64,000 nucleotides of DNA from Longimicrobium sp. (GTDB taxonomy: Bacteria; Gemmatimonadota; Gemmatimonadetes; Longimicrobiales; Longimicrobiaceae): NCBI GenBank assembly GCA_036377595.1, contig DASUYB010000175.1:21191-85190 (forward strand), written 5' to 3'. Position numbers and translations under genes: made by a program. Positions 11,860-62,000 of the stretch are shown piece after piece. Within the stretch, counting starts at the first letter, position 1; the number at the start of each line of letters is the position of its first letter. The notes beneath the pieces are model-generated. The model saw only the letters and a list, made by a program, of their open reading frames with translations. It was not told the origin of the DNA and made no database searches.

Positions 11860-38188
<26,329 letters not shown>

Positions 38189-38210
38189 GCCTGGGGTACC
38201 GGGGAAAAAT

Positions 38211-38350
38211 GCCTACAAAGTGCACGCGGACCCGCTGGCTGCGGGTCCGGCGTGATCACGGTCTGCCTGCGCGTGAGTGCGCGGGCGTGGCAGGTAAGTG
38301 ACACGGGGTCAACCGCTTGGATACAAATCAAAGCGGCAAATGTTTCCCGA
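38211..38350 (-). repeat. Tandem-duplicated leader segment, proximal copy A; it ends 22 nt upstream of the NRPS-B ATG
   Basis: 38211-38261 is identical over 51 nt to 38449-38499. 38323-38350 matches 38561-38588 at 26 of 28 positions. The central ~49 nt match at only about 31 of 49. It contains the hairpin at 38223-38254: CACGC-(G)-GGACCCGC loop GCGGGTCC-GCGTG. Confidence 0.9.
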
Positions 38351-38448
38351 AAAGCGCACCGGCGGTCGAGGTGACCGTGGTGGACGGCGGCGTGGTCAGC
38401 CCCCGGCCCCGCGGGGAGAGAGGCACGCCTTGGATCCCGCGGAAGAAC

Positions 38449-38588
38449 GCCTACAAAGTGCACGCGGACCCGCTGGCTGCGGGTCCGGCGTGATCACGGC
38501 CTGCCCGCGCGCGGCTGCGCGGACATGTAGCGTAAGTGCCAATATATCAACATCTTGAAAACAAATCAATGCGGCAAGTGTTTCCCGA
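38449..38588 (-). repeat. Tandem-duplicated leader segment, distal copy B (238-bp period)
   Basis: See copy A. The hairpin is at 38461-38492. The centre of this copy is AT-rich and carries the promoter-like hexamers listed separately. Confidence 0.9.
38541..38569 (-). promoter_or_regulatory. Candidate sigma70-type promoter for NRPS-B: TTGATT, 17-nt spacer, TATATT
   Basis: The minus strand reads cacttgccgcaTTGATTtgttttcaagatgttgaTATATTggcac. The -35 is the complement of 38564-38569 and the -10 is the complement of 38541-38546. It sits in an AT-rich island within otherwise GC-rich DNA. At the equivalent position copy A reads CCCCGT instead of TATATT. Confidence 0.35.
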
Positions 38589-38741
38589 GAGACGGTGACG
38601 TCTCCTGCCGATGTCTCCACGGAGTCATCGGGGTCATCGGAGGGATCCGTGGGAGGCAGTCCCTCCGTCGACTTCGATGACTCCGCGTGATACCGGATTG
38701 AACGAATGGCTGTGCGTTCGATTGGATCTGATGAGAATAGT

Positions 38742-38815
38742 CTCACACGGAGGGAACGGAGGAAACGGAGGGTTTGCTCATCATCCCTCCGTTTCCTCCG
38801 TTCCCTCCGTGTGAG
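38742..38815 (-). terminator. Perfect 31-bp-arm palindrome (12-nt loop) 63 nt downstream of the ACP gene; candidate terminator or RNA-stability hairpin
   Basis: CTCACACGGAGGGAACGGAGGAAACGGAGGG at 38742-38772. Loop tttgctcatcat at 38773-38784. CCCTCCGTTTCCTCCGTTCCCTCCGTGTGAG at 38785-38815, with no mismatches. The arms contain three AACGGAGG-like direct repeats. No clean U-tract follows. Confidence 0.4.
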
Positions 38816-38877
38816 TCATTCTGTTGGGTCAGATCGCCCGATCAATCCGCAGATTCGGTGTGAGGCTGGCGGCGCGG

Positions 38878-39141
38878 TCAGCCCTGCAGCGACACCACGG
38901 CCGCGCGGAGCGTCGCCGGCGTCCTGAAGGTCTCCGGCATCAGCAGGTCGTCGGTGAACGTCACGCCGAACTCGGTCTCCACCTCCAGCAGCAGGTCGAT
39001 GATCCGCATGGAGTCGAGGCCCAGCGTCTTCAGCTCGGTGTCCATCGGCACCTCGAGCGCGGCGGGGTGGCCCAGCACGCGGCGGATGGCCTTGAGCACG
39101 CGGGCGTCGGTGGCGTCGGCGGTCAGCAGAGTGGCATCCAT
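38878..39141 (-). CDS. Free-standing acyl carrier protein
   Basis: 87 aa with LKTLGLDSMRIIDLLLEVETEFGV, a phosphopantetheine-site DS motif in a typical helix II context. The ATG lies 1 nt after the upstream stop. Confidence 0.88.
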   Translation of the reverse strand: MDATLLTADATDARVLKAIRRVLGHPAALEVPMDTELKTLGLDSMRIIDLLLEVETEFGVTFTDDLLMPETFRTPATLRAAVVSLQG

Positions 39142-39142
39142 C

Positions 39143-40339
39143 TCAGGCGCGTCCGTTGAAGTGGGGGAGGAAGTCGCGCATCCGGCGGACGCCCTCCACG
39201 ATGTGCTCCTCGGTGGCCCCGAAGGAGAGGCGCAGGAAGCCCTCGCCGGCCTGGCCGAAGAAGATCCCGGGGAGGGTGACCACGCCGGCGTCGCGCGCCA
39301 GCGCCTCGGCCAGCGCGTTCGAGTCGGAGGTGATCCCCCGCACGTCGAGGAAGACGAAGAGCGAGCCCTCCGACGGCGTGGAGGGAAGCCCCAGCTCCTC
39401 GTCGATCGCCCGGCACAGGAGGAGGCGCTTGGCGGAGAGCTCGTCGCGCGTGTAGGAGAGCCAGCGCGGATCGCGGAACGCCTCGCGCGCCACGATCTGC
39501 GAGACGGAGCTGGCGCACATCACCGTGTAGGTGTGGATCGCGTTCGTCGCCTGGGCCAGCGCGCGCGGCGAGAGCACCCAGCCCAGCCGCATCCCCATCA
39601 GCGAGCAGCACTTGGAGAGGCCGCCCACCACGATGGCCCGGTCGGTCAGCTCGCCCATCGAGGTCGGGCAGCGGCCGTAGAAGAGCTCGCGGTAGATCTC
39701 GTCGGCCACGATCCAGCACCCGCTGGCCTCGGTCACGCGCACCAGCCCCTCCACCTGCTCGCGGGAGAAGGTCCGTCCCGTGGGATTGCACGGGTTGGAG
39801 AGGACCACGGCGCGCGTGCGCGGGCCGATCAGCCCGGCGATGGCGTTAAGGTCCAGGTCGAACCCCTCGTCGGGCGAGCAGGGCGCGGCCACCACCTCGA
39901 TCCCGAGGATCTCGGCGATGCGGCGGAAGCACCAGAAGTTCGGCTCCACCACGATCACCTGGTCGCCCGGGTCGGCCACGGCGCCCAGCGCGGCGAACAG
40001 CCCCTCCATCGCCCCCACGGTGATGACGACCTGGTCGACGGAGGTGACGTGGCCGAACCCGTGGTGGGCGCGCACCGCCTCGCGCAGCTCCGGGTCGCCC
40101 GCGCCGATGGTGTAGCCCAGCGGCTCGCGCAGGTACGCCCCGAACCCCGCCTCCAGCAGCTCCGCGGACGGGCCCTGGCGCGGCTCGCCCACCGACAGGT
40201 CGACCGAGTCTTCCCGGCGGATGGAGAGGAGCCGCCGCAGCGCCGAGGTGCTCAGCCGCGCGGCGCGTGCGGACGGCCCGAGGACGCGCCGCTCCGTCTC
40301 CAGCGGGAGGGAGGGGACGGCGGAGAGGACGGCGCTCAC
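39143..40339 (-). CDS. PLP-dependent aminotransferase, class I/II (AspC-like fold)
   Basis: This is the C-terminal 398 codons of the track ORF 39143..41329. Motifs: SNPCNPTG, the PLP-lysine context GGLSKCCSLMGMRLGW, and LRLSFG near the C-terminus. I call the start at the GTG at 40339-40337, which overlaps the methyltransferase stop as GTGA. The upstream part of the 728-aa ORF overlaps the methyltransferase gene in another frame and is Arg/Pro-rich. Confidence 0.82.
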   Translation of the reverse strand: MSAVLSAVPSLPLETERRVLGPSARAARLSTSALRRLLSIRREDSVDLSVGEPRQGPSAELLEAGFGAYLREPLGYTIGAGDPELREAVRAHHGFGHVTSVDQVVITVGAMEGLFAALGAVADPGDQVIVVEPNFWCFRRIAEILGIEVVAAPCSPDEGFDLDLNAIAGLIGPRTRAVVLSNPCNPTGRTFSREQVEGLVRVTEASGCWIVADEIYRELFYGRCPTSMGELTDRAIVVGGLSKCCSLMGMRLGWVLSPRALAQATNAIHTYTVMCASSVSQIVAREAFRDPRWLSYTRDELSAKRLLLCRAIDEELGLPSTPSEGSLFVFLDVRGITSDSNALAEALARDAGVVTLPGIFFGQAGEGFLRLSFGATEEHIVEGVRRMRDFLPHFNGRA

Positions 40340-41433
40340 GAGTGCGCCGCTCCGTTGCCGTTCCCGTTGCCGAGCTTGCCCAGGTAGAAGCGCAGCCGCG
40401 CGTTGGGCGAGATCAGCTCGTGGCGGATCAGCGTGCAGCCGGCGTCCTCCACGATGCCGCGCCAGTCGTCGGGCCAGCGGGGCGAGCCCTGCAGCGAAAG
40501 CGGGTGGATGAACCAGTAGTTCAGCGCCCCGGTCTGCCCGGCGGGGTCCGCCGCCAGCCCGTCGACGTCGGGCGGCTCGCTCTCGAAGAAGATGAAGTGC
40601 CGCCCCGGGAGCGTCTTGCGCAGCGACGTGAGGGTCTCGACGATGGCCTGGCGCCCGCCGCGACCCATCTCGTGCAGGATGTACATCGCGGTCACCACGT
40701 CCACGCCGTCGGCGATGCTGGCGGGAAGCGGCAGGCCGTCGGGCCCGAGCTCGGCCACGTGCCAGGCGATGCGGTTCTCCAGCCCGAAGTCGCGGGCGTG
40801 CTCGCGGGCCATCTCCACCGCGTCGGCGTCCATGTCCACCCCGATCGCCTGCAGCCCGTCGAACTGGCGCGCCAGCTGGATCAGGAACCCGCCGGTCCCG
40901 CACCCCAGGTCCAGCACCCGCGACGCGCCGATCTCCTGCATCACCGAAAGCACCTTGGGGATCCCGGAGATGCAGTTGATCTCCTCCGTCCCCTTGGCCG
41001 CGTGCTTGGTCGAGCGGTGCAGGTCGGAGAGCTGGATCTCGCCCCGCGCGGCGCGGTTCAGGTTCTGGAGGATGCCGCCGTAGCCGCCCACGTACAGGTC
41101 GATCAGCCCGCGGAAGTAGCTGTTGTGGTACTTCCGACCGCGCTCGGAGAGACCGTAGTGCTCGCCGTCGCGGGTGAGGAAGCCGAGCGCGTTCAGGTAG
41201 ACGATGCAGGTCTCGAAGACGGTGCGGTCCACCGCCAGCTCCGCCACCACCTCGTCCACGGTGAAGCGCGGGTGCGACTTGGCGTACTCGTAGAAGCCGT
41301 TGTCCCACAGGGCCAGCAGCGCCTGGCACAGGAAGTAGTGGGTGACCAGCTCCCGGATCTCGGGCATCAGCGAGCGGTCCGTTCCCAGGAGCGTAGCCGC
41401 CTCGCGGCCCTCGTCCAGAAGGTCGATGGTCAT
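40336..41433 (-). CDS. Class I SAM-dependent methyltransferase with an N-terminal winged-helix/dimerisation-like region
   Basis: 365 aa. SAM motif I RVLDLGCGTGGFL, followed by GVDMD and post-I/II-like segments. The ATG at 41433 overlaps the PPTase stop as ATGA. Confidence 0.85.
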   Translation of the reverse strand: MTIDLLDEGREAATLLGTDRSLMPEIRELVTHYFLCQALLALWDNGFYEYAKSHPRFTVDEVVAELAVDRTVFETCIVYLNALGFLTRDGEHYGLSERGRKYHNSYFRGLIDLYVGGYGGILQNLNRAARGEIQLSDLHRSTKHAAKGTEEINCISGIPKVLSVMQEIGASRVLDLGCGTGGFLIQLARQFDGLQAIGVDMDADAVEMAREHARDFGLENRIAWHVAELGPDGLPLPASIADGVDVVTAMYILHEMGRGGRQAIVETLTSLRKTLPGRHFIFFESEPPDVDGLAADPAGQTGALNYWFIHPLSLQGSPRWPDDWRGIVEDAGCTLIRHELISPNARLRFYLGKLGNGNGNGAAHS

Positions 41434-42206
41434 TCGAATACCTCTTGGTTGTCAGGAAGATGGAAGCCCAGCGGAAGCCGGGGGAGCGGCTCGGCCCGGG
41501 GAACGCGCGTGGCCCACGCCAGCGTCACCAGGTCGCGGTCGACGACCAGGAAGCGCCCCTCCACCGGCATGGCCGCCCACCCGCGCAGGTCGGCCGGGAG
41601 CGAGGCCACGCGCCACCGCCCCACGGCCACGTCGAGCCGGATGCCGACCTCGAGGAAGTCGATGAAGCGGCGCGCGTGGGGATAGAGCGCCTTGTACAGC
41701 GCCTCTTTCGCGGAGAAGATCACCTTGTAGGGATCGATCCCGCCGCCGGACCACGCGGGCGCGGCGCGCAGCTCCTCCACGGTGCAGATCAGCCCGCGCA
41801 GCTCGGGCGAGAGCGGCTCGATCGAGTCCAGGTCGGCCCCCAGCGCGGGGACGTCGTCGGTCCGCGCCGCCACCGCCAGGCAGATCTCGCGGCTGTGGGA
41901 GATGGTGCCCACGTACCCCTTGGCCCACACCGGCTCGCGGTTGGCGCCCACGGGGATGGCGCGGTGGGGCAGCCCCAGCGCCGAGAGCGCGGCCCGGGCG
42001 CACCGCCGCCCGGTGGAGAACTCGCGCACCCGCTGCGGCACCGCCCGCGCCACCGCCTGGCGCTCCACGGGATGGAGCGCGTGGTGGTGGTCGCCGATCT
42101 CGTGGACGTCGAGCGCCGCGCCCGCGGGAAGGATCGCCCGGAGGCGGTGGGCCAGGCGGCTGGCGCGCGCGTGCCGCCCGGTGAGGGTGTTCAGCGATAC
42201 GGGCAC
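41430..42206 (-). CDS. 4'-phosphopantetheinyl transferase (EntD/Sfp-type)
   Basis: 258 aa. REFSTGRRCARAAL, EPVWAKGYVGTISHS, the metal-binding LGADLD, and FSAKEALYKA, in canonical order. GTG start at 42206, 7 nt after the NRPS-A stop. Confidence 0.88.
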   Translation of the reverse strand: MPVSLNTLTGRHARASRLAHRLRAILPAGAALDVHEIGDHHHALHPVERQAVARAVPQRVREFSTGRRCARAALSALGLPHRAIPVGANREPVWAKGYVGTISHSREICLAVAARTDDVPALGADLDSIEPLSPELRGLICTVEELRAAPAWSGGGIDPYKVIFSAKEALYKALYPHARRFIDFLEVGIRLDVAVGRWRVASLPADLRGWAAMPVEGRFLVVDRDLVTLAWATRVPRAEPLPRLPLGFHLPDNQEVFE

Positions 42207-42213
42207 GGTGACC

Positions 42214-45200
42214 TCAGGCGGAGGGGAAGGAGAACGATTCGCCGGCCGCCTCGGCCAGGCGCGCGAGCTCCTCGGGGTCGAACTGGGCCAGCTGCGCGTC
42301 CACCACCCGCTCGGCCAGCGTGGCCAGCACCGGCGCCTCGAAGATCTCCCTCATCCCCAGGTCCACCCCCACCTCGTCGCGGATGCGCGTGGCCACCCGC
42401 ACCACCAGCAGGGAGTGGCCGCCCAGCTCGAAGAAGTCGTCGTTCCGGCCGACGCGGGCCACCCCCAGCACCTCGGCCCAGATCTCCGCCAGCAGCTCCT
42501 CCGTCTCCCCCTCGGGCGCCTCCCAGGCGCGCCGGGCATAGGCGTCCGCGTCGGGCGCGGGCAGGGCGCGGCGGTCCACCTTGCCGCTGGTGGTGAGCGG
42601 GAGCCGCTCCAGCCGCACGTACGCCGCGGGCACCATGTACTCCGGCAGCTGCTCGCCCAGGTGGGTGCGCAGCACCTCGGCCCCGACCTCCGGGCCCACG
42701 TAGTAGGCGACGAGGCGCTGCAGCCCCGGCTCGTCCTCGCGCGCGGCGACGACGGCCTCGCGCACCGCCGGGTGGGCGGCCAGCTTGGCCTCGATCTCGC
42801 CCAGCTCCACGCGGAAGCCGCGGATCTTCACCTGGAAGTCGGCGCGGCCCTGGAACTCGAGCGTGCCGTCGGCGCGCCAGCGGCCGAGGTCGCCCGTGCG
42901 GTAGAGCCGCGCGCCGCCGCCCGCGAACGGGTCGGGGACGAAGCGCTCGGCCGTCAGCGCCGGCCGGTCCAGGTAGCCGCGCGCCACCTGCACCCCGCCG
43001 ATCAGGATCTCGCCCGTGACGCCCACCGGCGCCGGCGCACCCCTCTCGTCGAGCACGTAGATGCGGCAGTTCGGCGTCGGACGACCCAGGCTGGCGCCGA
43101 CCGCCTCGCCCTCGACGGGGCGCCGCCGGGTGACGGCGACGGTCGCCTCGGTCGGCCCGTACATGTGGTCCAGCGTGACGCCCGGCAGCCGCGAGCGCAG
43201 CCGCCCCATCAGCCCCGCCGGCAGCGGCTCGCCGCCGCTGAGGACCTGCCTCAGGCTGGTGCAGCCGGCGACGTCCGGATGCTCGAGGAACTCCAGCAGC
43301 ATCGACGGCGGGAAGGTGGCCGTGGTGACGCCGGCGCGGCGGATCAGCTCCACCAGGTGGGCCGGGTCGCGGTGCCCCTCGGGGCGCACGACGACGAGCC
43401 GCGCGCCCACGGTCAGCGGCCAGAAGAACTCGCGCACGGAGACGTCGAAGCTCGACGACATCCGCTGCAGCATGGCGTCGCCGCCGCCGAGCGCCCACGT
43501 CTCCTGCGCCCAGGCCAGGGCGTTGGCCACGTTGGCGTGCGTGTTCATCACCCCCTTGGGCTTGCCCGTGGAGCCGGAGGTGTAGATCACGTACGCCAGG
43601 TTCGCCGGGCTCCCCATCCGCGCCGGGTTCGTCTCCGGCCCGGCGGGGAGATCTCCATCGACCGCGACGACCGGCATCTCCAGACCCTCGAAGATCGAAG
43701 CCAGACCGTCGCGCTGCCGCGTCTTCGTCAGCACCGCCGCCGGCGCGCTGTCGGCCAGCATGTAGCGCAGGCGATCCGACGGATAGTCGGGGTCCAGCGG
43801 CACGTACGCGCCGCCGGCCTTGAGCACGCCGAAGAGCGCCACCGGCATCTCCGCGCTGCGCTCCATGCACACGGCCACCCGCGCGTCGGGCCCCACGCCC
43901 AGCGCGCGGAGGTGGTGCGCAACCCGGTTCGCCCGCCGGTTCAGCTCGGCGTAGGTGAGCGACTCGTCCTCGAAGACGACGGCGACGGCGTCGGGCGTGC
44001 GCTCAACCTGCCGCTCGAATAGCTCGTGGATGCACAGGCCGCCCTCGTACGCCGAGTCGGTGCGGTTCCACTCCTCCACCACCCGCGCCCGCTCGCCCTC
44101 GTCGGCCAGCGCCAGCGCGGCCACGGGCTGCGCGTCGTCCGCCACCATCTGCTCCAGCACCCGGCGCAGGTAGCCGACGTAGCGCCGCACCGTCTCCTCG
44201 TCGAACAGCGCGGTGGCGTAGAGCAGGACGCCGCGCATCCGCCCCTCCACCTCGGAGAGGGTGAGGGCCAGGTCGTACCGCGCGGTCGCCGCCGCCTCGC
44301 CGCCCACGGGCGACGCGTCCAGCTCCGGCAGCTCCAGCGGGCCGCCGGGGTTGTTCTGGACGGTGAACATCACCTGGAAGAGCGGGTTGTGCGCCAGGCT
44401 GCGCACCGGGTCCACCAGCTCCACCACCCGCTCGAAGGGGATGTCGCCGTTCTGCTGCGCCCCCAGCGTGGTGGCCTTCACCTGCTTGAGGAGATCGGCC
44501 ACGGTGGGCGAACCGCCCACCCCCACGCGCAGCGCCAGCGTGTTCACGAAGAAGCCGATCAGCCCCTCGATCTCGCGCTGCCCGCGGTTGGCCGTGGGTG
44601 TGCCGACTACGACGTCTTCCTGCCCGGCGAGCCGGCTCAGCACCGTGGCCCACCCGGCGAGCAGCGTCATGTACATCGTCGTCCCATGCCGCCGGGAGAG
44701 CGCCTTCAGCCCCGCGGTCAGCGTCTCGTCCAGCTCGATCCCGCGCAGCACCGCGCCGGCGAAGTCCGGCCGCTCGGGGCGCGGGCGGTCGGTCGGCAGG
44801 GTGAGGACGGCGGGGACGCCCTGCAGCGTCTCGGTCCACCACCGGGCCTGCGCCTCGAGCGTGGCGTCGTCGAGGGCGCGCCGCTGCCAGACGGCGTAGT
44901 CGGCGTACTGGATGGGAAGCGGCGGAAGGGGATCGGGCCTGCCCGCGCGGTAGGCGGCGTACAGCTCGCCCAGCTCGCGGTGGAACACCCCCGACGACCA
45001 GCCGTCGAAGACGATGTGGTGCAGGGTGACCAGCAGCACGTGCTCGTCGGCCGCCAGGCGGACCAGGCGGGCGCGGAAGAGCGGACCGTGCTCCAGGTCC
45101 AGCGGCGCGGTGGACTCCGCCGCCATCGCCAGCTGCAGCGCCCCGTCCACGTCCTCCACGCCCTGCAGGTCGTCGAGCTCCAGCGCGAAGGCGTGCTCCT

Positions 45201-51200: not shown

Positions 51201-54200
51201 GCACCTCGCCCTCGATCCAGCGCCGCTGCCACGCGGCGTAGTCGGCGTACTGGATGGGGAGGGGGGAGAGGGGATTCGGCTCGCCCGCGCGGAAGGCGGC
51301 GTAGAGCGCGCCCAGCTCGCGGCCGAAGACGTCCGACGACCAGCCGTCGAAGATGATGTGGTGCACGGTGACCAGCAGGACGTGGTCGTCCGGCGCCATG
51401 CGGATCAGCCGGCCGCGCACCAGCGGGCCCTGCTCCAGGTCGAAGCGCGCCGTGGCCTCCTCCGCCAGCACCCGTACCAGCGCGTCCTCGGCGCCGGCGT
51501 CGCGGGTCAGGTCGATCTCCACCAGCGGGAAGCGGCTCTCCGCCGCCGGCGCGATGCGCTGCACCGGCGCGCCGTCCACCCGCGGGAAGGTGGTCCGCAG
51601 CGTCTCGTGCCGGGCGACCAGTGCGTCCAGCGCGCGCACCAGCGCGTCGCGGTCCAGCGCGCCGCGCAGACGGCGGCGCCAGCGCATCTGGTACGCGCTC
51701 CCCAGCCCGCCGAACTGCTCCAGGAACCAGAGCCGCTGCTGCCCGAACGACAGCGGCAGGTCGGCCCCGCGCTCGACCGCCTCGATGCGGGCGAGCTCGG
51801 TGTGGACCGCGTCTCCGAGCGCGCGGGTGAAGTCGGCCAGCACGGGGCGCTCGAAGAGGGCGCGCAGAGGAATCTCCGCCTGCAGCGCCTCGCGCACGCG
51901 GGTGATGGCCTGCACCGCCAGCAGCGAGTGCCCGCCCAGCTCGAAGAAGTGGTCGTTGCGGCCGACGCGGTCGACGCCGAGCACCTCGGCCCAGATCTCC
52001 GCCAGCGCCTCCTCCGTCTCCCCCATCGGGGCGACGAACTCGCGCGTGGACCAGGCGTCGCTCTCCGGCGCGGGCAGCGCCTTGCGGTCCGCCTTCCCGC
52101 TGGGGGTCATCGGCAGCGCCTCCAGCCGCACGAAGGCGGCGGGGACCATGTACTCCGGCAGGCGCGCGGCCAGGTGCTCGCGCAGCGCGGCGGCATCCAC
52201 CTCGCCCTCGCCCGCCCAGTACGCCACGAGACGCTTCTCGCCCGGCGCGTCCTCGCGCGCGACGACCACGGTCTCGCGCACGTCGGGGTGGTCGGCCAGC
52301 TTCGCCTCGATCTCGCCCAGCTCGATGCGGAAGCCGCGGATCTTCACCTGGAAGTCGGTGCGGCCCAGGAACTCCAGCGTCCCGTCTGCCCGCCAGCGCG
52401 CCAGGTCGCCCGTGCGGTACAGCCGCGCGCCGGGCTCGCCCGAGAACGGGTCGGCGACGAACTTCTCCGCCGTCAGCTCGGGGCGGTTCAGGTAGCCACG
52501 CGCCACCTGGCCGCCGCCCACGTGGATCTCGCCCGCCACGCCCACGGGCGCGGGGCGGCCCTGCTCGTCGAGCACGTACACGCGCGCATGCAGCACCGGC
52601 CGGCCGATCGAGCGCCAGCTCTGCGGGTCGCGCGTGACCTCCTGGAGCGTCGCGTTGACCGTGGCCTCGGTGGGGCCGTAGAGGTTGCGCAGCTCGGGGA
52701 GATAGCCGCCGCGGCGGAACCAGGCCGCCAGCATCGCGGGCTCCACGGCCTCGCCGCCGGTCTCCACCAGGCGCACGCAGGGGGGGATGGCCACGCCCTC
52801 CTCGCCCACCAGCAGCTGCCAGAAGCGCACGGGGAGGTCGGTCACCGTCACCCCGTGGCGCTCGCAGCGGGCCCAGAAGGTCTCGGCGCTCTCCAGCCAG
52901 GCGTCGCTGCGCAGCACCGACGCGGCGCCGGACAGGATCGCCCCGAAGATCTGCTCCACCGACGCGTCGAAGGTCACCGGCGCGAACTGCAGCACGCGGT
53001 CGCCGGGGCCGATCCCCAGTCCCGCCTGCAGCCCCTCCACCTGCATGCACAGCGAGCGGTGCTCGACCATCACCCCCTTGGGCGTGCCGGTGGAGCCCGA
53101 GGTGTAGATCACGTACGCCACGTGCCGCGGCGTCAGCCCCGCGCGGGCGGGATTGACGTCAGGCTCGCCGGCAAACGCCTCCGGCGCGGAGAGGTCGACC
53201 AGCGGCACGCCGAAGCCGGCCAGCGCGTCCGCGAGGTGCGACTGCGTCAGCACCAGCGCGGGGGCGGCGTCCTGCAGCACGGCGGCGATGCGCTCGGCGG
53301 GATGGCTGGGGTCCAGCGGCACGTACGCGCCGCCGGCCTTCAGCACGCCCAGCAGCGCCACCATCATCTCCGCCCCGCGCTCCACGCACAGGGCGACGCG
53401 GACGTCCGGCCCCACGCCGCGCGCGGCCAGGTGGTGCGCCAGGCGGTTGGCGCGCCGGTTCAGCTCGCCGTACGTCAGCTCCACCTCGCCGGCGACGACG
53501 GCGATCGCCTCGGGGGCGCGCGCGGCGTGCTCCTCGAACAGGTCGGGGGCGCAGCGCTCGCGCGCGGGCGCCATCTCCCTGCGGTTCCACGCGTCGACGA
53601 CGAGCCGACGCTCGCTCTCCGGCAGCACGTCGACCGCGGCGACGGCCGTCTCCGGCGCCGTCTCCAGCGCGTCGACCAGCCGCTCCAGCGCGGCGTGCAT
53701 CAGCTCGGAGATCCGCGCCGGATCGATCGAGACGTCGACCTGCGGCGTCAGCGTGAAGCCCTCGCCCCAGTCGTCCACCGACAGCGTGAGCGGATAGTTG
53801 GTCCGCTCCTCGCCGCGCAGCATGCGGATCCCGTCCCACGCCTGCCGGCTCTCCGCCTCGTCCACGCGGATGCCGCCCGAGCCGCCGTCGCCGTAGCCGT
53901 GGCGGTAGTTGAGCAGGGTGGTGAAGAGCGGGGTGGGCGCCTGCACGCCGCTGCAGCGCTGCGCCAGCGCCAGCGACGCGTGCTCGTGCCGCAGCAGCCG
54001 CGCGAGGGTGCGATGCGTGTCGCGGACGGCGTCCTCCACGCCCTGCCCGTCGACGCGCACGCGGACGGGAAGGGTGTTGATGAACACACCGAGCACGCGG
54101 TCGGCGCCCTCGCCGCCTTGCATGCGGCCGAAGAGGAGGGTGCCGAACACCACGTCCGGCTGCCCCGACGCGCGCGACAGCACCTGCGCCCAGGCGACGT

Positions 54201-57200: not shown

Positions 57201-58830
57201 GCTCGAAGGGGATGTCCTGGTTCCGCTGCGCGCCCAGCGTGCCGACCTTGGCCTGCGCCAGCAGCTGCGCCACCGTGGGCCGCGCGGAGAGGTCGAAGCG
57301 CAGCGCCAGCGTGTTGACGAAGAAGCCGATCAGCCCCTCGATCTCGCGCCGCCCGCGGTTGGCCGTCGGCGCGCCGATGACCACGTCGCGCTGGCCCGAG
57401 AGCCGGCTCAGCACCGTCGCCCATCCCGCCAGCAGCGTCATGAAGAGCGTGGTGCCGTGACGGCGGCCCAGCGAGCGCAGCCCCTCCGTCAGCGCCGCGT
57501 CGAACTCCAGCGACACCGAGCCGCCTCGATGGTCCATCCGCAACGGACGCGGGCGGTCGGTGGGGAGCTCGAGCAGCGCGGGCGCGCCGGCCAGCGCCTC
57601 GCGCCAGTACGACGCCTGCGCCTCGAGCACATCGCCCTCGACGAAGCCACGCTGCCAGACGGCGTAGTCCGCGTACTGGACGGGGAGCGGGAGAAGGGGA
57701 TCGGGCTGCCCCGCGCGGAACGCGGCGTACAGCGCGCCCAGCTCGCGGCTGAACACGCCCAGCGACCACCCGTCCGAGACGATGTGGTGCATGGTGACGA
57801 GGAGGACGTGGTCGTCCTCGGCCATGCGCACCAGCCGGCCGCGGAGCAGCGGGCCGTGCTCCAGGTCGAACGGCGCGACGGCCTCCTCGGCCGTCAGCCG
57901 CGCCAGCGTCTCCTCCGCGGCCGCGTCGCCACGGAGATCGTGCTCGGCCAGCGCGAAGCCGCCTTCCAGCGCCGGCGCGATACGCTGCACCGGCGCGCCG
58001 TCCTCGAGCGCGAACGTGGTCCGCAGCGCCTCGTGGCGCGCGACCAGCGTGTCGAGCGCGCGAAGCAGGGCGTCGCGGTCCAGCGCGCCGCGCAGGCGGA
58101 AGCCGCGCGGGATGTGGTAGGTGCCGCCCAGGTTGCCGAGCTGTTCCAGGAACCACAGCCGCTGCTGCGCGAAGGAGAGCGGCAGGTCGCCGTCCCGCTC
58201 CACCGTCTCGATCTCCGAGAACGCGGAGGGCGGCGTCCGCTCCACCATCGCGGCGAAGTCGGCCAGGACGGGGCAGAGGAAGAGGACCTGCGGCGGAAGG
58301 TCGCGCCCCAGCGCGTCGCGCACGCGCGAAAGCACGCGCACGGCCAGCAGCGACTGACCGCCGTTCTCGAAGAAGTTGTCGTGCCGGCCGACGCGCTCCA
58401 TCCCCAGCACCTCGGCCCAGATCCCCGCCAGCACCTGCTCCGTCTCGCCGACGGGAGGCTCGTAGCCGCGGGTGACCCAGGCGTCGTCGCCGGGCTCGGG
58501 GAGCGCGCCGAGGTCCACGGAGCCGTCTTCCGCGCGCGGGAAGGCGTCCAGGCGCATGTAGCCGCCCGGCACCATGTACTCGGGCAGGTGCCCCAGCATG
58601 TGCGCGCGGAGGCTCTCCCCTGCCACTTCGACGCCGGGCTCGGCCAGGTAGTAGGCGATCAGGCCCTTCTCGCGGGCCGCTAGCCTGCGGTTGTCCACCA
58701 CCGCGTCACGGACCGCGGGATGCTGGACGAGCGCGGCCCGGATCCGCTCGAGGTCGACCTGGCGGCCTCGGACGTTCCGCACCCATTCCAGCGCCCGGGC
58801 AAGGCCCGCGGTCTCTTGTTCGCTCTTCAT
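42214..58830 (-). CDS. Non-ribosomal peptide synthetase 'NRPS-A', 5538 aa: (degenerate A-subdomain)-T / C-A-T / (E/C)-A-T / C-A-T / C-A-T / C-A-T plus a short C-terminal docking tail
   Basis: One uninterrupted ORF with an ATG start. Five A3 cores lie at ~56328, 53075, 49893, 46724 and 43555. There are six carrier motifs. There are four LCL-like C domains (HHI[VI][SF]DGWS) and one [15 protein letters not shown]-type domain. There is no TE. The protein ends ...[28 protein letters not shown]. Confidence 0.97.
42217..45465 (-). other. NRPS-A module 5: divergent C, then A-T and a docking tail
   Basis: The C domain starts [17 protein letters not shown] at ~45377-45420 and carries [10 protein letters not shown]3 core (SGSTGKPKG) at ~43555-43598. 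T Ser at 42412-42414. Hand code DVRTLGMVAK (Arg at position 239; unassigned). Confidence 0.78.
45466..48630 (-). other. NRPS-A module 4: C-A-T
   Basis: C motif at ~48545-48585. A3 core at ~46724-46768. T Ser at 45583-45585. Hand code DGRNLGLTAK (Arg at position 239; unassigned). Confidence 0.78.
48631..51810 (-). other. NRPS-A module 3: C-A-T
   Basis: C motif ([12 protein letters not shown]) at ~51725-51762. A3 core (SGSTGHPKG) at ~49893-49937. T Ser at 48745-48747 (FFDLGGHSL). Hand code DAPGNAMIVK (unassigned). A5 reads NMYGATE rather than GPTE. Confidence 0.78.
51811..55065 (-). other. NRPS-A module 2: E/C-like condensation domain, then A-T
   Basis: [25 protein letters not shown] at ~54855-54927. 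The N-terminal HH motif is offset by one residue from HH[IL]xxxxGD. The second motif is [10 protein letters not shown]3 core at ~53075-53120. T Ser at 51925-51927. Hand code DAEDEGLVNK (unassigned). Confidence 0.72.
55066..58200 (-). other. NRPS-A module 1: C-A-T, predicted Asn
   Basis: C motif at ~58147-58190. A3 core at ~56328-56370. T Ser at 55189-55191. Hand code DLTKIGEVGK against the canonical Asn code DLTKLGEVGK. Confidence 0.8.
58201..58830 (-). other. NRPS-A N-terminal loading region: relic of an A-domain C-terminal subdomain (aa 1-112) plus carrier domain T0 (aa ~125-198)
   Basis: The region aligns to the A8-A10 part of the other A domains but is degenerate. [12 protein letters not shown] replaces [24 protein letters not shown] replaces PNGKIDRRALP, so the invariant A10 Lys is Ser (codon 58519-58521). 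T0 reads [10 protein letters not shown], with its Ser at 58351-58353. Confidence 0.8.
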
Positions 58831-59043: not shown

Positions 59044-62000
59044 TTACTCCCCGACCAGCACCTGGTGAACCGCCTCGACGTGCGGGAAGCGCATGGCCTC
59101 GGAGTGCGCGCATGCCACCGGCAGCACCTCGACGTCGGTGTTCAGCGCGCGCTTCCACCCGTACGAGTCGGCGTGCGGCTCGCCCAGGCCCCACTCGCCC
59201 AGCCGGTTCATGATCGAGAACGGCCCCAGGCCGCACCGGACCAGCTTCACCTTCGTCCCGTTCAGGGAGCGGGGCGCCGCGTAGCCGGCGAGGTTCGAGC
59301 GGTTGCTGTAGTCGTCCACCGTCTTGTCGACGGAGGCGGGCTCCAGCGACGCGCCGCGGATGCGGTCGTCGAGGTAGCGGTCCACCACCGCCAGCGCCTG
59401 CTCCATGTCCGCCTCGGCGCCCTCGAACTCGTCGAGCACGCGCGCGGGGACGGCCCCGTCGGGGGCCAGCGCCTCGAGCACGGCGGTCTTGATGAAGAGC
59501 CGCTTGAGCTCGTCCTCGTTCTGCGCCTCGGCCAGGCTCACGTAGGCGAAGGAGTCGACCAGCACCAGCAGGCTCACCTCGTGTCCCGCCTGGATCAACT
59601 GGTTCGCGACCTCGACCGCCACCGAGCCGCCGAAGGAGAAGCCCACCAGGCGGTAGGGCCCGCGCGGCTCCGTCTGCACGATCACCTTCGCGTACTCGGC
59701 GGCCTGGCGGACGAAGTCGTGCCGCACGTCGTCCGCCGCCCGGTCGCCCGGGCTGCCGGAGAGGACGTACACGCTGTATCCACGTCCCTCGATCGACGCG
59801 AGGTCGGTGAAGTCGTAGACGCTGTCGGCGATGCCGGGGACGCAGAACACCGGCGGCCCGGCCTTCTCGCCCACGGCCACCGCGACGGCCGTCGAAGGCG
59901 CCGGCTGCGCGTCGTCGCCCCCGCGCGCGGCCACGATCTGCTCGGCGAGGAAGACGGCGAGCCGCGCCACCGTCGGGTGCGCGAAGAAGCTCCCCGCGCG
60001 GATGGGGATTCCCACGCCGCGCTGCACGTTGTTGCGCAGCTCCGTCATCATCAGCGAGTCGATCCCCGCGTCGACGAAGTTGGTCTCGCGCTTGACGTTG
60101 GCGGTGGGCACGCCCAGCACCTTGGCCACCTCGACCTGCAGGAACTCCTCGACCACCCCGGGAAGCTCGTCCGCCGCCGAGCGCGCGATGCGCCCGGGCC
60201 ACTCGTCCGCGCCGCCCGCGGCGGCGCCGGGAGCCTCCTCCAGCAGCTCGAAGAGCGGGTCGGCCGCCGCCTTCGCGCGCCGCGAGCGGAGCTTGGCGAC
60301 GACGGCCTCGGTGCGGCCCTCCACCAGCAGCCGCTCCAGCGCCTGCTGGCCCTCTTCCTTGCCGACGAGACGGTGCTTGCCGGTGAGCCCGAGCGAGGCC
60401 GCCATCCCCTCGCCCTCCCACGCGCCCCAGTTGATGGAGAGCGCCGGGAGCCCCGCGCCCGCGCGGTGGCGGGCCAGGCCGTCCATGAAGGCGTTGGCCG
60501 CGGCGTAGTTCCCCTGCCCCGCGCCGTCGATCACCGCCGAGGTCGACGAGAAGCAGGCGAACCAGCCGATCCCGCGGTCCTTCGTCAGCTCGTGCAGCAC
60601 CAGCGTGCCGTCGACCTTGGCGCGGAACACGGTCTCGAAGCGCTCGCGGTCGAGGTGGCGGAGGATGCCGTCGCTCAGCACGCCCGCGCAGTGGAAGACG
60701 CCGGCGACCGGCTCGGCGCGCTCGAGCACCGCGGCCATGTCGTCCATCGACGCCACGTCCGCGTTCTCGACCATCACCTCCACGCCCGCCTCGCGCAGTT
60801 TCTCCACCCGCTCCAGCGCGCTCCCCGCCGGCATGCGGCGCGACAGCAGCACCAGCCGCCTGGCGCCGCGCGCGGCCAGCAGCTCGGCCACGTGCAGCCC
60901 CAGCGCGCCCAGCCCGCCGGTGACCACGCAGGCCGCGTCCGCCGGCACCGACAGCGTGCCGTCGCCCGCGCCCGCGCCGTCGAGGGAGACGATCACCTTG
61001 CCGACGCTGCGCCCCGAGGCCAGCCAGCGGAAGGCGTCGACCGCCTCCTTCAGCGCGAACTCCTTGGCCGGCAGCGGGCGGAAGTCGCCGCGCTCGAAGC
61101 CGTCCAGCACGTGCCCCATCAGGCGGCGGTACTGGTGGTCGCCGCCGGCCTCGCCCTCGCCGATCTCCAGCGCGGTGTAGGCCACGTCGGGGCGGTAGGT
61201 CCGCGCCTCCTCGTCGCTCCAGATCCCCAGCTTGCCGATCTCCACGAAGCGGCCGCCCTCGGCCATCACGTCGAAGCCGGCCTGGATGAAGTCGCCGGTG
61301 AGGGAGTTCAGCACGATGTCGACGCCCGCGCCGCCCGTGGCCTCGCGGATCGCGTCCACGAAGCGGGGGTCGCGCGAGTCGACGATGTGCTCGATCCCCT
61401 GCGACCGCAGGAAGCCCCACTTGGGCATGCTGGCCGAGGCGAACACCTCGGCGCCCACGGCCTGGGCGATCTGCACCGCGGCCTGCCCCACGCCGCCCGC
61501 GGCCGCGTGGATCAGCACCCGGTCGCCCGCCTTGATCCGCGCCACGTCGTGCAGCGCGTACCAGGCGGTCATGAACACCGTCGGCAGCGCCGCCGCGTCG
61601 CCCCACCCCAGGATCGCGGGCTTCTTCACCACCTCGTGCTCGCGCAGGACGTGGTGGCTGGCCAGGCAGCCGCGCGAGTAGGCGATCACCTCGTCGCCCG
61701 CGGCCACGCTCGTGACCGCGCTTCCCACGCGGGTGACGACGCCCGCGCCCTCGAAGCCGAAGCGCAGGTCCTGCGGCTCGCAGACGGGGATCTTCCCGAG
61801 GACGAAGAGGCACTCCTTGAAGTTCAGCGGGGCCGCCTTGATCTCCACCTCCACCTCGTCCGGGGCCAGCACCGGGATCACCGCGCCCGGCGCCGGGGCC
61901 AGGTAGAGGTTGTCGAAGGTGCCGAACGCGCGGGTCTGCAGCTGGTAGCGGCCGTCGGGACGCTCGAGCCCGGCGTTCGCGCTCGCGAGGCGATCGAGCC

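What the first reader, a model, noticed from the sequence alone, without database searches (positions are those of the whole stretch)
38878..42206. A PPTase / methyltransferase / aminotransferase / ACP cassette is wedged between the two NRPS genes, with its likely FkbH partner 27 kb away
Four small genes are translationally coupled. The stop/start junctions are ATGA at 41430-41433, GTGA at 40336-40339, a 1-nt gap at 39142, and a 7-nt gap after NRPS-A. FkbH-like enzymes (here at 9949-11760) are known to load a glyceryl unit from a glycolytic intermediate onto a dedicated ACP. The only free-standing ACP in the window is in this cassette. The usual follow-up dehydrogenases of the methoxymalonyl-ACP pathway (FkbK/FkbI-type) are not present in the window. 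A PLP aminotransferase and a SAM methyltransferase are present instead. This suggests, by inference only, an ACP-tethered C3 unit that is aminated and/or methylated rather than a canonical methoxymalonyl extender. That unit could be delivered to the orphan T0.
Basis: inference. Interest (0 to 1): 0.6.

Follow-up and report, generated by a model that had tools for sequence, protein, structure and literature searches.

The report
Accessory gene cassette inside a peptide-synthetase cluster
Four small coupled genes between two giant peptide-synthetase genes are real, but they most likely do three ordinary jobs (switch on carrier proteins, make a beta-methylated amino acid, and carry a glycerate unit) and not one new carrier-bound pathway.

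Summary
PPTase (41430-42206), methyltransferase (40336-41433), aminotransferase (39143-40339) and ACP (38878-39141) lie on the minus strand with the stated ATGA and GTGA overlaps and the 1-nt and 7-nt gaps.

**Methyltransferase.** By sequence and by fold it belongs with the alpha-keto-acid beta-C-methyltransferases MrsA, MppJ and SgvM. Both metal-binding histidine positions are kept. The members I read about (SgvM, ApyS) act on an alpha-keto acid with a free carboxylate.

**Aminotransferase.** It is an ordinary AspC-like class I enzyme.

**Best reading of the pair.** The two enzymes supply a free beta-methyl amino acid to one adenylation domain. This is a known kind of NRPS accessory pair.

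**FkbH and the ACP.** The FkbH-to-ACP link is supported.
- All 14 long FkbH relatives examined have a small ACP gene within 3.5 kb.
- This ACP is the only discrete carrier on the 117-kb contig.
- It lies one gene from fkbH.
- No FkbI- or FkbK-type dehydrogenase is on the contig.
- The orphan T0 domain remains a rival acceptor.

No close relative of the whole cassette was found outside near-identical soil strains.

The parts
41430..42206 (-). Sfp/PptT-type 4'-phosphopantetheinyl transferase, 258 aa, GTG start 7 nt after the NRPS-A stop
   Evidence: Pfam 4PPT_N 79.8 bits and ACPS 30.5 bits, both above cut-off. NCBIfam PptT model 85.9 bits, below its exception cut-off. Junction read.
40336..41433 (-). 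SAM-dependent methyltransferase of the alpha-keto-acid beta-C-methyltransferase kind, 365 aa
   Evidence: NCBIfam best hit is TIGR04543 2-ketoarginine MT, E 7.4e-32, 110.7 bits (cut-off 425), followed by ApyS at 98.3 bits. PDB sequence hits: MrsA 6.1e-15, MppJ 5.4e-10, 8ftr/8ftv. AF2 model has pLDDT 90.4. Foldseek ranks 1-24 are all MppJ, MrsA or SgvM. H254 and H310 are invariant in 17 sequences and pair with MrsA H244 and H302. LDLGCGTGG starts at residue 174.
39143..40339 (-). AspC-like class I/II PLP aminotransferase, 398 aa, GTG start overlapping the methyltransferase stop
   Evidence: Pfam Aminotran_1_2, 178.8 bits. PDB 5yhv at 8.8e-54, then aspartate aminotransferases at about 1e-45. The SK motif lysine (K243), NPCNPTG, ADEIY and the LRLSF arginine are present and aligned to 5yhv. 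Nearest database relatives: 77% identity (partial), then 47%, 47%, then about 35% identity with proteins named aspartate aminotransferase.
38878..39141 (-). Discrete acyl carrier protein, 87 aa, serine in GLDSM
   Evidence: Pfam PP-binding 38.8 bits. Scores 32.6 bits on an HMM of FkbH-adjacent ACPs, 35.3 bits on an HMM of ACPs next to stand-alone adenylating enzymes, and 1.5 bits on this cluster's NRPS T-domain HMM. It is the only such ORF on contig C175.
9949..11760 (-). Long-type FkbH-like enzyme (N-terminal domain, HAD phosphatase, Cys-bearing C-terminal domain), 603 aa
   Evidence: TIGR01686 302.3 bits, cut-off 146.65. PDB 3slr at 1.1e-46 over residues 38-404. D256, D258, T260 and C525 (SCR motif) are conserved in 18 of 18 sequences, with T260 replaced by V in one.
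58237..58830 (-). N-terminus of NRPS-A: AMP-binding_C remnant plus carrier domain T0 (GGQS). Rival acceptor for FkbH.
   Evidence: Pfam AMP-binding_C 26 bits, PP-binding 48.5 bits, then Condensation. T0 scores 110.1 bits on the NRPS T HMM and -0.3 bits on the FkbH-ACP HMM.
52083..53136 (-). Adenylation domain of NRPS-A module 2. Candidate user of a cationic (possibly beta-methylated) amino acid. Inference only.
   Evidence: The ten-residue code extracted by motif anchoring is DAEDEGLVNK, with three acidic pocket residues. Reading the code rests on recalled Stachelhaus positions.
38742..38815 (.). Perfect palindrome just downstream of the ACP stop, inside a 476-bp segment that close relatives lack
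   Evidence: Sequence read. The joint 38404 to 38881 is seen in one contig each of X2, X3 and X4.

Best explanation
The cassette is the tail of the NRPS-A operon and holds three separate accessory functions.

1. **PPTase.** It converts the cluster's carrier domains to their holo form. There are 14 NRPS T domains, the PKS ACP, the A-ACP protein and the discrete ACP.

2. **Methyltransferase plus aminotransferase.** Together they make a free beta-methyl amino acid.
   - The AspC-like aminotransferase deaminates a proteinogenic amino acid to its alpha-keto acid.
   - The metal-dependent methyltransferase binds that keto acid through its keto and carboxylate oxygens and transfers a methyl group from SAM to C3 of the enolate.
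   - The aminotransferase re-aminates the product.
   - One of the 13 adenylation domains then activates the beta-methyl amino acid. Which amino acid is not settled. The acidic pocket of NRPS-A module 2 and the family link to 2-ketoarginine methyltransferase make beta-methylarginine a lead only.

3. **Discrete ACP.** It is the dedicated carrier of the long-type FkbH encoded one gene away. FkbH would take a glycolytic C3 phosphoester, dephosphorylate it, hold glycerate on Cys525 and pass it to holo-ACP. The pathway stops at glyceryl-ACP, with no oxidation to hydroxy- or methoxymalonyl. The glyceryl unit enters the peptide as a glycerate cap, as in vioprolide-type lines.

**Shown:** gene order, family and fold assignments, conserved motifs, ACP pairing in FkbH relatives, and absence of the dehydrogenases from the contig.

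**Inferred:** every catalytic step, the substrate identity, and the entry point of glycerate.
For: **Methyltransferase**
- NCBIfam top hits are 2-ketoarginine MT (110.7 bits) and ApyS (98.3 bits).
- The PDB sequence search puts MrsA, MppJ and 8ftr/8ftv first. O-methyltransferases appear only from about 7e-07.
- In the Foldseek search, ranks 1-24 are MppJ, MrsA and SgvM, with TMq 0.73-0.78 for MppJ/MrsA and 0.63-0.68 for SgvM. The entry titles name them alpha-keto-acid C-methyltransferases.
- H254 and H310 are invariant and align with MrsA H244 and H302. SgvM binds Zn through H244 and H296, with the keto acid on the metal (PMC10502145, passages).
- ApyS methylates a C-terminal alpha-keto acid (PMC11117315, passages).

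**Aminotransferase**
- It is AspC-like and keeps the PLP lysine motif and the C-terminal arginine.

**Pairing and precedent**
- The two genes overlap by 4 nt.
- A second methyltransferase-aminotransferase pair, 29% and 33.5% identical, lies adjacent in a Longimicrobium MAG (L011).
- An NRPS cluster with a ketoarginine MT plus an aminotransferase for beta-methylarginine has been proposed (PMC13505331, passages).

**FkbH and ACP**
- TIGR01686 scores above its cut-off. The DxDxT motif and SCR cysteine are conserved in 18 of 18 sequences.
- All 12 fetched long-type FkbH loci (11 by tblastn, L110 by reading the frame), plus L134 and L135, carry a small ACP gene within 3.5 kb. In 10 of the 12 it lies within about 130 nt on the same strand.
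- The window ACP scores 32.6 bits on their HMM. T0 scores -0.3 bits.
- It is the only discrete carrier on C175.
- There are no ACAD or 3HCDH genes on C175.
- FkbH with a stand-alone ACP is the norm in tetronate and methoxymalonyl pathways (PMC7489565, passages).
- Glycerate-capped NRPS products made through FkbH are known (PMC8949500 and PMC10099666, passages).
Against: **Methyltransferase**
- Identity to MrsA, MppJ and SgvM is only 16-22%. The score is far below the ketoarginine-MT equivalog cut-off (110.7 against 425). Substrate and even regiochemistry are therefore unproven.
- The ten closest orthologues (37-46% identity, L001-L010) have no aminotransferase, ACP, PPTase, FkbH or NRPS within 10 kb. 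The pairing is not a conserved unit for this subfamily.
- The methyltransferase was found in only 1 of 301 genomes sampled from the phylum, the window's own.

**Aminotransferase**
- Its 272-bit hit to the GntC model is not specific. A second AspC-like gene upstream of the cluster scores 242 bits on the same model.

**ACP and FkbH**
- The ACP scores as well on ACPs that sit next to stand-alone adenylating enzymes (35.3 bits) as on FkbH-adjacent ACPs (32.6 bits).
- It has GLDS where the FkbH-adjacent ACPs have WDS or WTS.
- In this genome a short FkbH on contig C65 follows an NRPS-type T domain in cis. FkbH enzymes can therefore load T domains, and T0 has no other visible loader.
- A 3HCDH-ACP-ACAD set with no loader in sight lies on another contig, C208.

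**Limits**
- There is no product, no expression data from raw reads, and no distant relative of the cassette.
Confidence: 0.6

Rival explanations
1. FkbH loads glycerate on the cassette ACP. The aminotransferase and/or the methyltransferase then modify the ACP-tethered C3 unit into an aminated or methylated extender or starter, which is delivered to T0.
For: All four genes are translationally coupled. The ACP is the likely FkbH partner. The canonical dehydrogenases and the FkbG-type O-methyltransferase are absent from the contig. In corramycin a glycerate unit is proposed to be C-methylated, though by a radical-SAM enzyme (PMC10099666).
Against: Glyceryl-S-ACP has no ketone or aldehyde for a transaminase, and no oxidase partner was found. 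The methyltransferase's structural and sequence relatives that I read about use alpha-keto acids with a free carboxylate, which is blocked in a thioester. The aminotransferase is AspC-like and keeps the conserved C-terminal arginine that I recall as the alpha-carboxylate binder. No acyltransferase that could move a unit from the ACP to T0 was seen.
Confidence: 0.06
2. FkbH loads the orphan T0 directly. It stands in for the lost adenylation core, as cis FkbH-T modules do in vioprolide and corramycin. The discrete ACP then serves another purpose, for example as carrier for a trans-acting adenylating enzyme or as a shuttle between the PKS-TE and the NRPS. The methyltransferase and aminotransferase still make a free beta-methyl amino acid.
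For: T0 is an intact NRPS-type carrier with no cognate adenylation core. [quoted passage not shown] The same genome's short FkbH on C65 follows an NRPS-type T domain. The window ACP scores slightly higher on ACPs paired with adenylating enzymes (35.3 against 32.6 bits).
Against: Long-type FkbH relatives carry their own small ACP gene nearby in 14 of 14 loci examined. No carrier-less adenylating enzyme is present on C175 to use the ACP. The 681-aa A protein has its own ACP.
Confidence: 0.2
3. The methyltransferase and aminotransferase are not a beta-methyl amino acid pair. The methyltransferase methylates something else: the alpha-keto-acid-like starter taken by the unusual A-ACP/PKS, or the finished peptide. 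The aminotransferase independently supplies or recycles an amino acid.
For: The closest methyltransferase orthologues (37-46% identity) are not next to aminotransferases in 10 of 10 loci. The family's fold neighbours after rank 24 include O-methyltransferases and other C-methyltransferases. The starter A domain is atypical, with HDP in place of the FD motif.
Against: The 4-nt overlap of the two genes. The methyltransferase-aminotransferase adjacency recurs in L011. One orthologue sits next to a Glu/Leu/Phe/Val dehydrogenase, another enzyme that interconverts keto and amino acids (L003). Both metal histidines are kept.
Confidence: 0.12

Closest known systems
Beta-methyl amino acid supply pairs in peptide clusters: ketoarginine methyltransferase plus bifunctional aminotransferase (MrsA in Pseudomonas syringae; ArgN/ArgM in arginomycin; lvdA/lvdG in a lavendomycin-like NRPS cluster). 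Also MppJ (beta-methylphenylalanine) and SgvM.
   Same: A two-domain, metal-dependent SAM methyltransferase of the same fold, encoded next to a class I aminotransferase inside an NRPS cluster. Both metal histidine positions are kept.
   Different: Only 16-22% identical to the solved members. The score is far below the NCBIfam ketoarginine-MT cut-off. The substrate is unknown. The closest orthologues elsewhere are not in NRPS clusters. The ArgM/ArgN details are recalled and seen only as a citation in PMC13505331; the paper itself is not held.
FkbH-like glyceryl-S-ACP synthase with a stand-alone ACP (tetronate glycerate operon, e.g. Mad7/Mad8; methoxymalonyl set Mad11-15 or fkbGHIJK)
   Same: Long FkbH with the HAD motif and conserved cysteine, plus a discrete small ACP in the same cluster (PMC7489565).
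   Different: There is no FabH-like tetronate enzyme. No FkbI or FkbK dehydrogenases are on the contig. No FkbG-type O-methyltransferase is in the cassette. The ACP is not adjacent to fkbH but one 26-kb gene away. The context is an NRPS, not a PKS.
Glycerate-primed NRPS lines with a cis FkbH domain (vioprolide, corramycin, cystomanamide: FAAL-ACP-C-FkbH-T)
   Same: An acyl or PKS loading section upstream, an FkbH function, and a carrier at the head of the NRPS that lacks a working A domain (PMC8949500 and PMC10099666).
   Different: Here FkbH is a free-standing 603-aa protein at the far end of the cluster. The upstream section is an amino-acid-type A-ACP plus a fully reducing PKS module ending in a TE. 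No C domain precedes T0.
Sfp/PptT-type PPTases embedded in NRPS/PKS clusters
   Same: 4PPT_N plus ACPS domains, encoded directly after a synthetase gene.
   Different: Nothing notable. A second cluster-linked PPTase exists on contig C208.

Membership tests
Alpha-keto-acid beta-C-methyltransferases (MppJ/MrsA/SgvM/ApyS kind) | Two-domain fold: N-terminal helical dimerisation domain plus C-terminal Rossmann domain | tested here: met
   AF2 model has pLDDT 90.4. Foldseek ranks 1-24 are MppJ, MrsA and SgvM, aligned over about 340-355 columns with TMq 0.63-0.78.
Alpha-keto-acid beta-C-methyltransferases (MppJ/MrsA/SgvM/ApyS kind) | Two histidine metal ligands at the base of the Rossmann domain (SgvM H244 and H296) | tested here: met
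   H254 and H310 are invariant in 17 sequences and pair with MrsA H244 and H302 in the phmmer alignment. The SgvM ligands come from PMC10502145. Equating the MrsA and SgvM positions is inferred, not aligned here.
Alpha-keto-acid beta-C-methyltransferases (MppJ/MrsA/SgvM/ApyS kind) | C3-methylation of an alpha-keto acid with a free carboxylate | not testable with these tools
   This needs an enzyme assay.
2-ketoarginine methyltransferase (TIGR04543 equivalog) | Score above the curated equivalog cut-off | tested here: not met
   110.7 bits against a cut-off of 425. It is related to MrsA but not an orthologue.
Class I/II (AspC-like) PLP aminotransferases acting on free amino acids | Pfam PF00155 above cut-off, the PLP-lysine motif and the conserved C-terminal arginine | tested here: met
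   178.8 bits against 19.7. GLSKCCS with K243, and LRLSF with R370, are aligned to 5yhv. The role of the arginine as alpha-carboxylate binder is recalled.
GntC/VioD-type PLP cyclodehydratases | Score above the equivalog cut-offs | tested here: not met
   GntC model 272.3 bits against 415. VioD 166 bits against 390.9. The solved GntC structure 8fft scores only 79.2 bits. An unrelated AspC-like neighbour scores 242.3 bits on the same model.
FkbH-like glyceryl-carrier synthases | FkbH domain above cut-off, HAD DxDxT motif and conserved cysteine | tested here: met
   TIGR01686 302.3 bits against 146.65. D256, D258 and C525 are conserved in 18 of 18 sequences, T260 in 17 of 18. The catalytic role of the cysteine is recalled.
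FkbH-like glyceryl-carrier synthases | A dedicated discrete ACP partner | tested here: inconclusive
   All 14 related loci have a small ACP gene within 3.5 kb. Here the only discrete ACP lies one gene away. It scores 32.6 bits on their HMM, but 35.3 bits on the HMM of ACPs paired with adenylating enzymes.
Methoxymalonyl-ACP cassette (fkbGHIJK) | FkbK (3-hydroxyacyl-CoA dehydrogenase-like), FkbI (acyl-CoA dehydrogenase-like) and an FkbG-type O-methyltransferase alongside FkbH and the ACP | tested here: not met
   None of 7 3HCDH_N hits and none of 10 Acyl-CoA_dh_1 hits are on contig C175. The cassette methyltransferase shows no Methyltransf_3 hit at E <= 0.01. PF01596 was not searched genome-wide.
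Sfp-type PPTase | 4PPT_N and ACPS domains above cut-off | tested here: met
   79.8 bits against 27, and 30.5 bits against 25.

The most novel reading that the evidence does not exclude
A free-standing long FkbH and a discrete ACP prime a 13-module NRPS in trans with glycerate. The fossil A-remnant/T0 marks where a cis loader was lost. The same operon supplies a beta-methyl amino acid made by a deeply divergent keto-acid C-methyltransferase whose substrate differs from every characterised member. That would be a glycerate-capped, beta-methylated peptide of a kind not yet described from this little-mined soil lineage.
Probability: 0.3. Interest if true: 0.5.

Novelty: new member of a known kind. 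Interest (0 to 1): 0.3.

Why it matters
The re-reading replaces a speculative carrier-bound pathway with two testable and more ordinary predictions about the product. It should contain one beta-methyl amino acid and a glycerate-derived unit.

The methyltransferase is only 16-22% identical to the few solved alpha-keto-acid C-methyltransferases, which are used as alkylation biocatalysts. Its substrate range could therefore be useful.

The case also shows that long FkbH proteins in this phylum nearly always travel with a small WDS/WTS-type ACP. That is a handy rule for annotating such clusters.

Tried and rejected
**Context of the methyltransferase and aminotransferase homologues on long contigs** (P0008, P0018, P0009; later P0046 and P0164).

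**Genome scan with the methyltransferase alignment**. It gave 10 true orthologue loci, none with the cassette. Their neighbours are heterogeneous: GST, acyltransferase, SDR, B12-radical SAM and a Glu/Leu/Phe/Val dehydrogenase.

**Metagenome scan with the aminotransferase**. The best hit was 28% identical, so no relatives of the cassette were found.

**Phylum search with the methyltransferase**. It was found in 1 of 301 genomes, the window's own.

**First ACP motif scan around FkbH relatives**. It found nothing because the pattern excluded the WDS type. tblastn with the L134 and L135 ACPs replaced it.

**Protein Atlas look-up of the methyltransferase**. It returned only generic methyltransferase clusters.

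**GntC and VioD as a hint to arginine chemistry.** Rejected as non-specific.

**C145 ACP as an alternative FkbH partner.** Rejected: it reads like the housekeeping fatty-acid ACP, judged from its sequence and from my unsearched reading of the neighbouring ORFs.

**Stachelhaus codes**. Reading the codes rests on recalled positions and recalled reference codes, so only the Asn-like, Ser-like and acidic-pocket calls are offered, as leads.

**Intrinsic terminator scan of 38100-42400.** None was found. One promoter-like site was found at 38569-38541.

**Read layout**. All four runs are contigs, so depth and uncovered parts say nothing. The RNA-library contigs (X5), roughly 89-97% alike to PPTase, methyltransferase and aminotransferase, are only a weak hint of expression of a relative.

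**Literature.**
- The searches for ArgM/ArgN/MrsB and for MrsA structure papers found no primary paper.
- PMC4135772 is not held.
- Supplements were not requested. The C-methyltransferase family tree in the supplement of PMC10502145 could bear on placing this enzyme.
- I made no search for a published description of this cluster, and I make no claim that it is unpublished.

**Unpublished genome.** The tally of 11 of 301 genomes includes the unpublished genome G182. I fetched nothing from it, and no other claim rests on it.

Full report
**Anatomy**

The window has about 73% G+C. All relevant genes lie on the minus strand.
- NRPS-A stop TGA at 42216-42214, a 7-nt gap, then the PPTase start GTG at 42206.
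- ATGA at 41433-41430 between the PPTase and the methyltransferase.
- GTGA at 40339-40336 between the methyltransferase and the aminotransferase.
- Aminotransferase stop TGA at 39145-39143, one base, then the ACP start ATG at 39141.

Pfam assigns the four products to 4PPT_N plus ACPS, class I SAM methyltransferase, Aminotran_1_2 and PP-binding.

**The cluster as a whole**

I laid the whole genome (7.2 Mb, 208 contigs; the window is C175:21191-85190) to see the rest of the cluster. In order along the minus strand it holds:
- a UpxY-like NusG-family antiterminator (NF033644, 135.8 bits);
- a 681-aa adenylation-ACP protein of the amino-acid type (TIGR01733, 322.3 bits against a cut-off of 317.4);
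- a PKS with KS-AT-DH-ER-KR-ACP-TE;
- NRPS-A;
- the cassette;
- a gap of about 690 nt;
- NRPS-B;
- FkbH;
- MacB/FtsX permease and ABC ATPase genes;
- MFS, DUF3179 and flavin mono-oxygenase-like genes.

Motif parsing shows that NRPS-A is a carrier T0 followed by five complete C-A-T modules. NRPS-B is eight C-A-T modules plus a TE. No module lacks an A or a T domain. The only carriers without a visible loader are T0 and the discrete ACP.

**Methyltransferase**

- Its best NCBIfam hits are the 2-ketoarginine methyltransferase model TIGR04543 (E 7.4e-32, 110.7 bits, nearly full-length) and the RiPP methyltransferase ApyS (98.3 bits). Both are far below the equivalog cut-offs.
- Against PDB sequences the order is MrsA (6.1e-15, residues 22-342), MppJ (5.4e-10) and 8ftv/8ftr. 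O-methyltransferases appear only from about 7e-07.
- An AlphaFold model built from 17 homologues has a mean pLDDT of 90.4.
- Foldseek against the PDB puts MppJ, MrsA and SgvM in ranks 1-24 (TMq 0.63-0.78). Other methyltransferases follow at TMq 0.49-0.64. The entry titles identify 8ftr, 8fts and 8ftv as SgvM.
- SgvM holds zinc through H244 and H296, and the alpha-keto acid binds directly to the metal (PMC10502145, passages).
- In this protein H254 and H310 are invariant across the 17-sequence alignment. They pair with H244 and H302 of MrsA in the printed alignment.
- ApyS, the one family member that works on a peptide, also methylates a C-terminal alpha-keto acid, so the carboxylate is free there too (PMC11117315, passages).

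The chemistry of the members I read about therefore requires an alpha-keto acid with a free carboxylate. A thioester-tethered C3 unit does not offer one.

**Aminotransferase**

- It is an ordinary AspC-like class I enzyme. Pfam PF00155 gives 178.8 bits.
- Its best PDB hit is 5yhv (8.8e-54), followed by aspartate aminotransferases at about 1e-45 to 1e-44.
- The PLP-lysine motif (K243) and the C-terminal LRLSF arginine are kept.
- In the 5.8-billion-protein search its relatives are one 77% partial, two at 47%, and then a long tail at about 35% identity that sources name aspartate aminotransferase.
- The 272-bit hit to the GntC model is not informative. A second AspC-like gene upstream of the cluster scores 242 bits on the same model. 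The solved GntC structure scores only 79 bits against this protein.

That is the result.

**Is the methyltransferase-aminotransferase pair a unit?**

- The two genes overlap by four bases.
- A second pair, 29% and 33.5% identical, lies adjacent in a Longimicrobium MAG (L011). That contig ends 75 nt after the aminotransferase stop, so a following ACP could not be checked.
- Against this, the ten closest methyltransferase orthologues (37-46% identity, L001-L010) have none of the cassette genes, FkbH or an NRPS within 10 kb.
- One of those ten sits beside a Glu/Leu/Phe/Val dehydrogenase, another enzyme that interconverts keto and amino acids.
- The methyltransferase was found in only the window's own genome among 301 sampled from the phylum.
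- A published proposal describes an NRPS cluster that encodes a ketoarginine methyltransferase and a bifunctional aminotransferase to supply beta-methylarginine (PMC13505331, passages).
- I recall, without having seen the papers here, that MppJ and GlmT rely on housekeeping transaminases. That would explain orthologues without a neighbouring aminotransferase.

**Which amino acid?**

I extracted ten-residue specificity codes by anchoring on core motifs. The positions and reference codes are recalled.
- NRPS-A module 1 is Asn-like (DLTKIGEVGK).
- NRPS-B module 7 is Ser-like (DVWHVSLVDK).
- NRPS-A module 2 (DAEDEGLVNK) has three acidic pocket residues, which suggests a cationic side chain.

Together with the family link to ketoarginine methyltransferase, this makes beta-methylarginine a lead and nothing more.

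**FkbH and the ACP**

FkbH scores 302.3 bits on TIGR01686. It aligns to the N-terminal and HAD domains of 3slr.

In an alignment of 18 sequences, D256 and D258 of the DxDxT motif and C525 in an SCR motif are invariant, and T260 is V in one. The 18 are the window's FkbH, 12 long-type homologues, 3 short-type homologues, and L134 and L135.

FkbH homologues occur in 51 of 301 sampled genomes of the phylum.

I fetched 12 long-type loci (L105-L116) and 3 short-type loci (L117-L119). My first ACP motif scan found nothing because the pattern excluded the WDS type.

A phylum-wide search with the window ACP gave weak hits in 10 other genomes (that tally includes the unpublished genome G182). I fetched ten of the 11 other places and did not fetch G182. 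Their contexts were:
- two lie directly downstream of long FkbH genes (L134, L135);
- four lie directly downstream of stand-alone adenylating enzymes (L132, L137, L140, L141);
- one lies about 1 kb from a weak AMP-binding match (L138);
- three had no match to my queries nearby.

With the L134 and L135 ACPs as queries, 11 of the 12 long-type loci showed a small ACP gene. The twelfth, L110, has an 87-aa WTSL-type ORF directly after FkbH. In 10 of the 12 loci the ACP lies within about 130 nt on the same strand. In one it lies 3.3 kb away. In one it is divergent, about 500 nt away.

HMMs built from these sets scored the carriers as follows:

| Carrier | FkbH-adjacent ACP HMM | Adenylase-adjacent ACP HMM | NRPS T HMM |
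|---|---|---|---|
| Window ACP | 32.6 bits | 35.3 bits | 1.5 bits |
| T0 | -0.3 bits | 4.1 bits | 110.1 bits |

Members of each ACP set score at most 22.4 bits on the other set's HMM.

Genome-wide, the two ACP HMMs hit only three ORFs:
- what reads like the housekeeping fatty-acid ACP, on C145;
- an ACP on C208, flanked by 3HCDH and ACAD genes;
- the cassette ACP.

On C175 no other discrete carrier exists. The cassette ACP belongs to the class of small carriers that serve stand-alone loaders, and FkbH is the only carrier-less loader in the cluster.

No Acyl-CoA_dh_1 hit (0 of 10) and no 3HCDH_N hit (0 of 7) lies on C175. The pathway therefore stops at a glyceryl-carrier, as in tetronate pathways (PMC7489565, passages) and in the glycerate-capped peptides vioprolide, corramycin and cystomanamide (PMC8949500 and PMC10099666, passages).

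**Why T0 remains a rival**

- In those peptide lines the FkbH domain sits in cis, in place of an A domain, directly before a T domain.
- Here T0 follows a decayed A remnant.
- On contig C65 of this same genome a short FkbH follows an NRPS-type T domain.

I cannot tell by computation whether FkbH loads the ACP, T0 or both.

Glyceryl-S-ACP has no carbonyl other than the thioester, so a transaminase has nothing to act on without prior oxidation. No such oxidase is on the contig. The methyltransferase family wants a free alpha-keto acid. The model is not excluded, but nothing found here favours it.

**Relatives in other samples**

The cassette DNA is held complete in one soil metagenome run, the probable source, and in part in others. 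Laying contigs of three DNA runs and one RNA-library run on 37800-42700 gave these results:
- Close relatives, with most laid pieces 90-99% alike, keep the order PPTase-MT-AT-ACP.
- One contig in each of X2, X3 and X4 joins 38404 to 38881. These relatives therefore lack the 476 bp that hold the palindrome and one copy of the duplicated leader. In them the ACP stop lies about 215 nt from the NRPS-B start.
- Two relatives (X2, X3) carry a 12-nt insertion at 40351, in the Gly-Asn tail of the methyltransferase.
- Contigs from a soil metatranscriptome library match the PPTase, methyltransferase and aminotransferase. Because these are contigs from an RNA library, this does not show transcription.

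**Verdict**

The cassette is a new member of known kinds: a cluster PPTase, a beta-methyl amino acid supply pair, and an FkbH carrier. Its interest is modest. It rests on a very divergent keto-acid C-methyltransferase and on a trans FkbH/ACP arrangement in an NRPS.

Noticed in passing
window 38405-38880: One contig in each of three other metagenome runs (X2, X3, X4) joins 38404 directly to 38881. Close relatives therefore lack the 476 bp that carry the perfect palindrome, one copy of the duplicated leader and the only promoter-like site (38569-38541). In them the ACP and NRPS-B are about 215 nt apart.
   Followed up: partly
window 40340-40360: The methyltransferase ends in a Gly-Asn repeat tail. 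One contig each in X2 and X3 carries a 12-nt in-frame insertion at 40351 that lengthens it.
   Followed up: no
G000 contig C208:23440-29767 (L148): A separate NRPS cluster carries MFS, 3-hydroxyacyl-CoA dehydrogenase, a small ACP, acyl-CoA dehydrogenase, a type II thioesterase and a PPTase. This is an FkbK/FkbJ/FkbI-like set with no FkbH and no stand-alone adenylase among the six ORFs scanned next to the ACP. What loads its ACP is unknown.
   Followed up: partly
G000 contig C65:29773-30696 (L119) and G106:C13 (L117): A second, short FkbH (only the HAD and Cys domains) lies about 740 nt downstream of the NRPS-type T domain that ends a PKS/NRPS gene, and NRPS modules follow it. The same arrangement is kept in a same-genus genome.
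   Followed up: partly
L105-L116, L134, L135 (FkbH loci of other genomes in the phylum): Long FkbH genes paired with a small WDS/WTS-type ACP are common in the phylum. FkbH is found in 51 of 301 sampled genomes. In 11 of the 12 loci L105-L116 no NRPS match of 60 bits or more lies within the fetched ~20 kb (L108 has one AMP-binding match). Their product is unknown.
   Followed up: partly
L082:2316-4361 (contig C175:87316-89361) and window 59044-64000: The cluster starts with a 681-aa amino-acid-type A-ACP whose A4 region reads HDP in place of the usual FD. A single fully reducing PKS module that ends in a TE follows it. A UpxY-like antiterminator gene precedes both.
   Followed up: partly
L003:10994-12133: In a Bdellovibrionales MAG the methyltransferase orthologue (41% identity) lies tail to tail with a Glu/Leu/Phe/Val dehydrogenase gene. 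This fits a keto-acid substrate for this methyltransferase subfamily.
   Followed up: no
window, NRPS-B modules 3, 5 and 8: Three A domains share a 7-residue deletion after motif A4, an FTSGSTG A3 motif and near-identical unusual codes (DVASNGLTYK twice, DVAGNGLTFK once). I could not assign a substrate.
   Followed up: no
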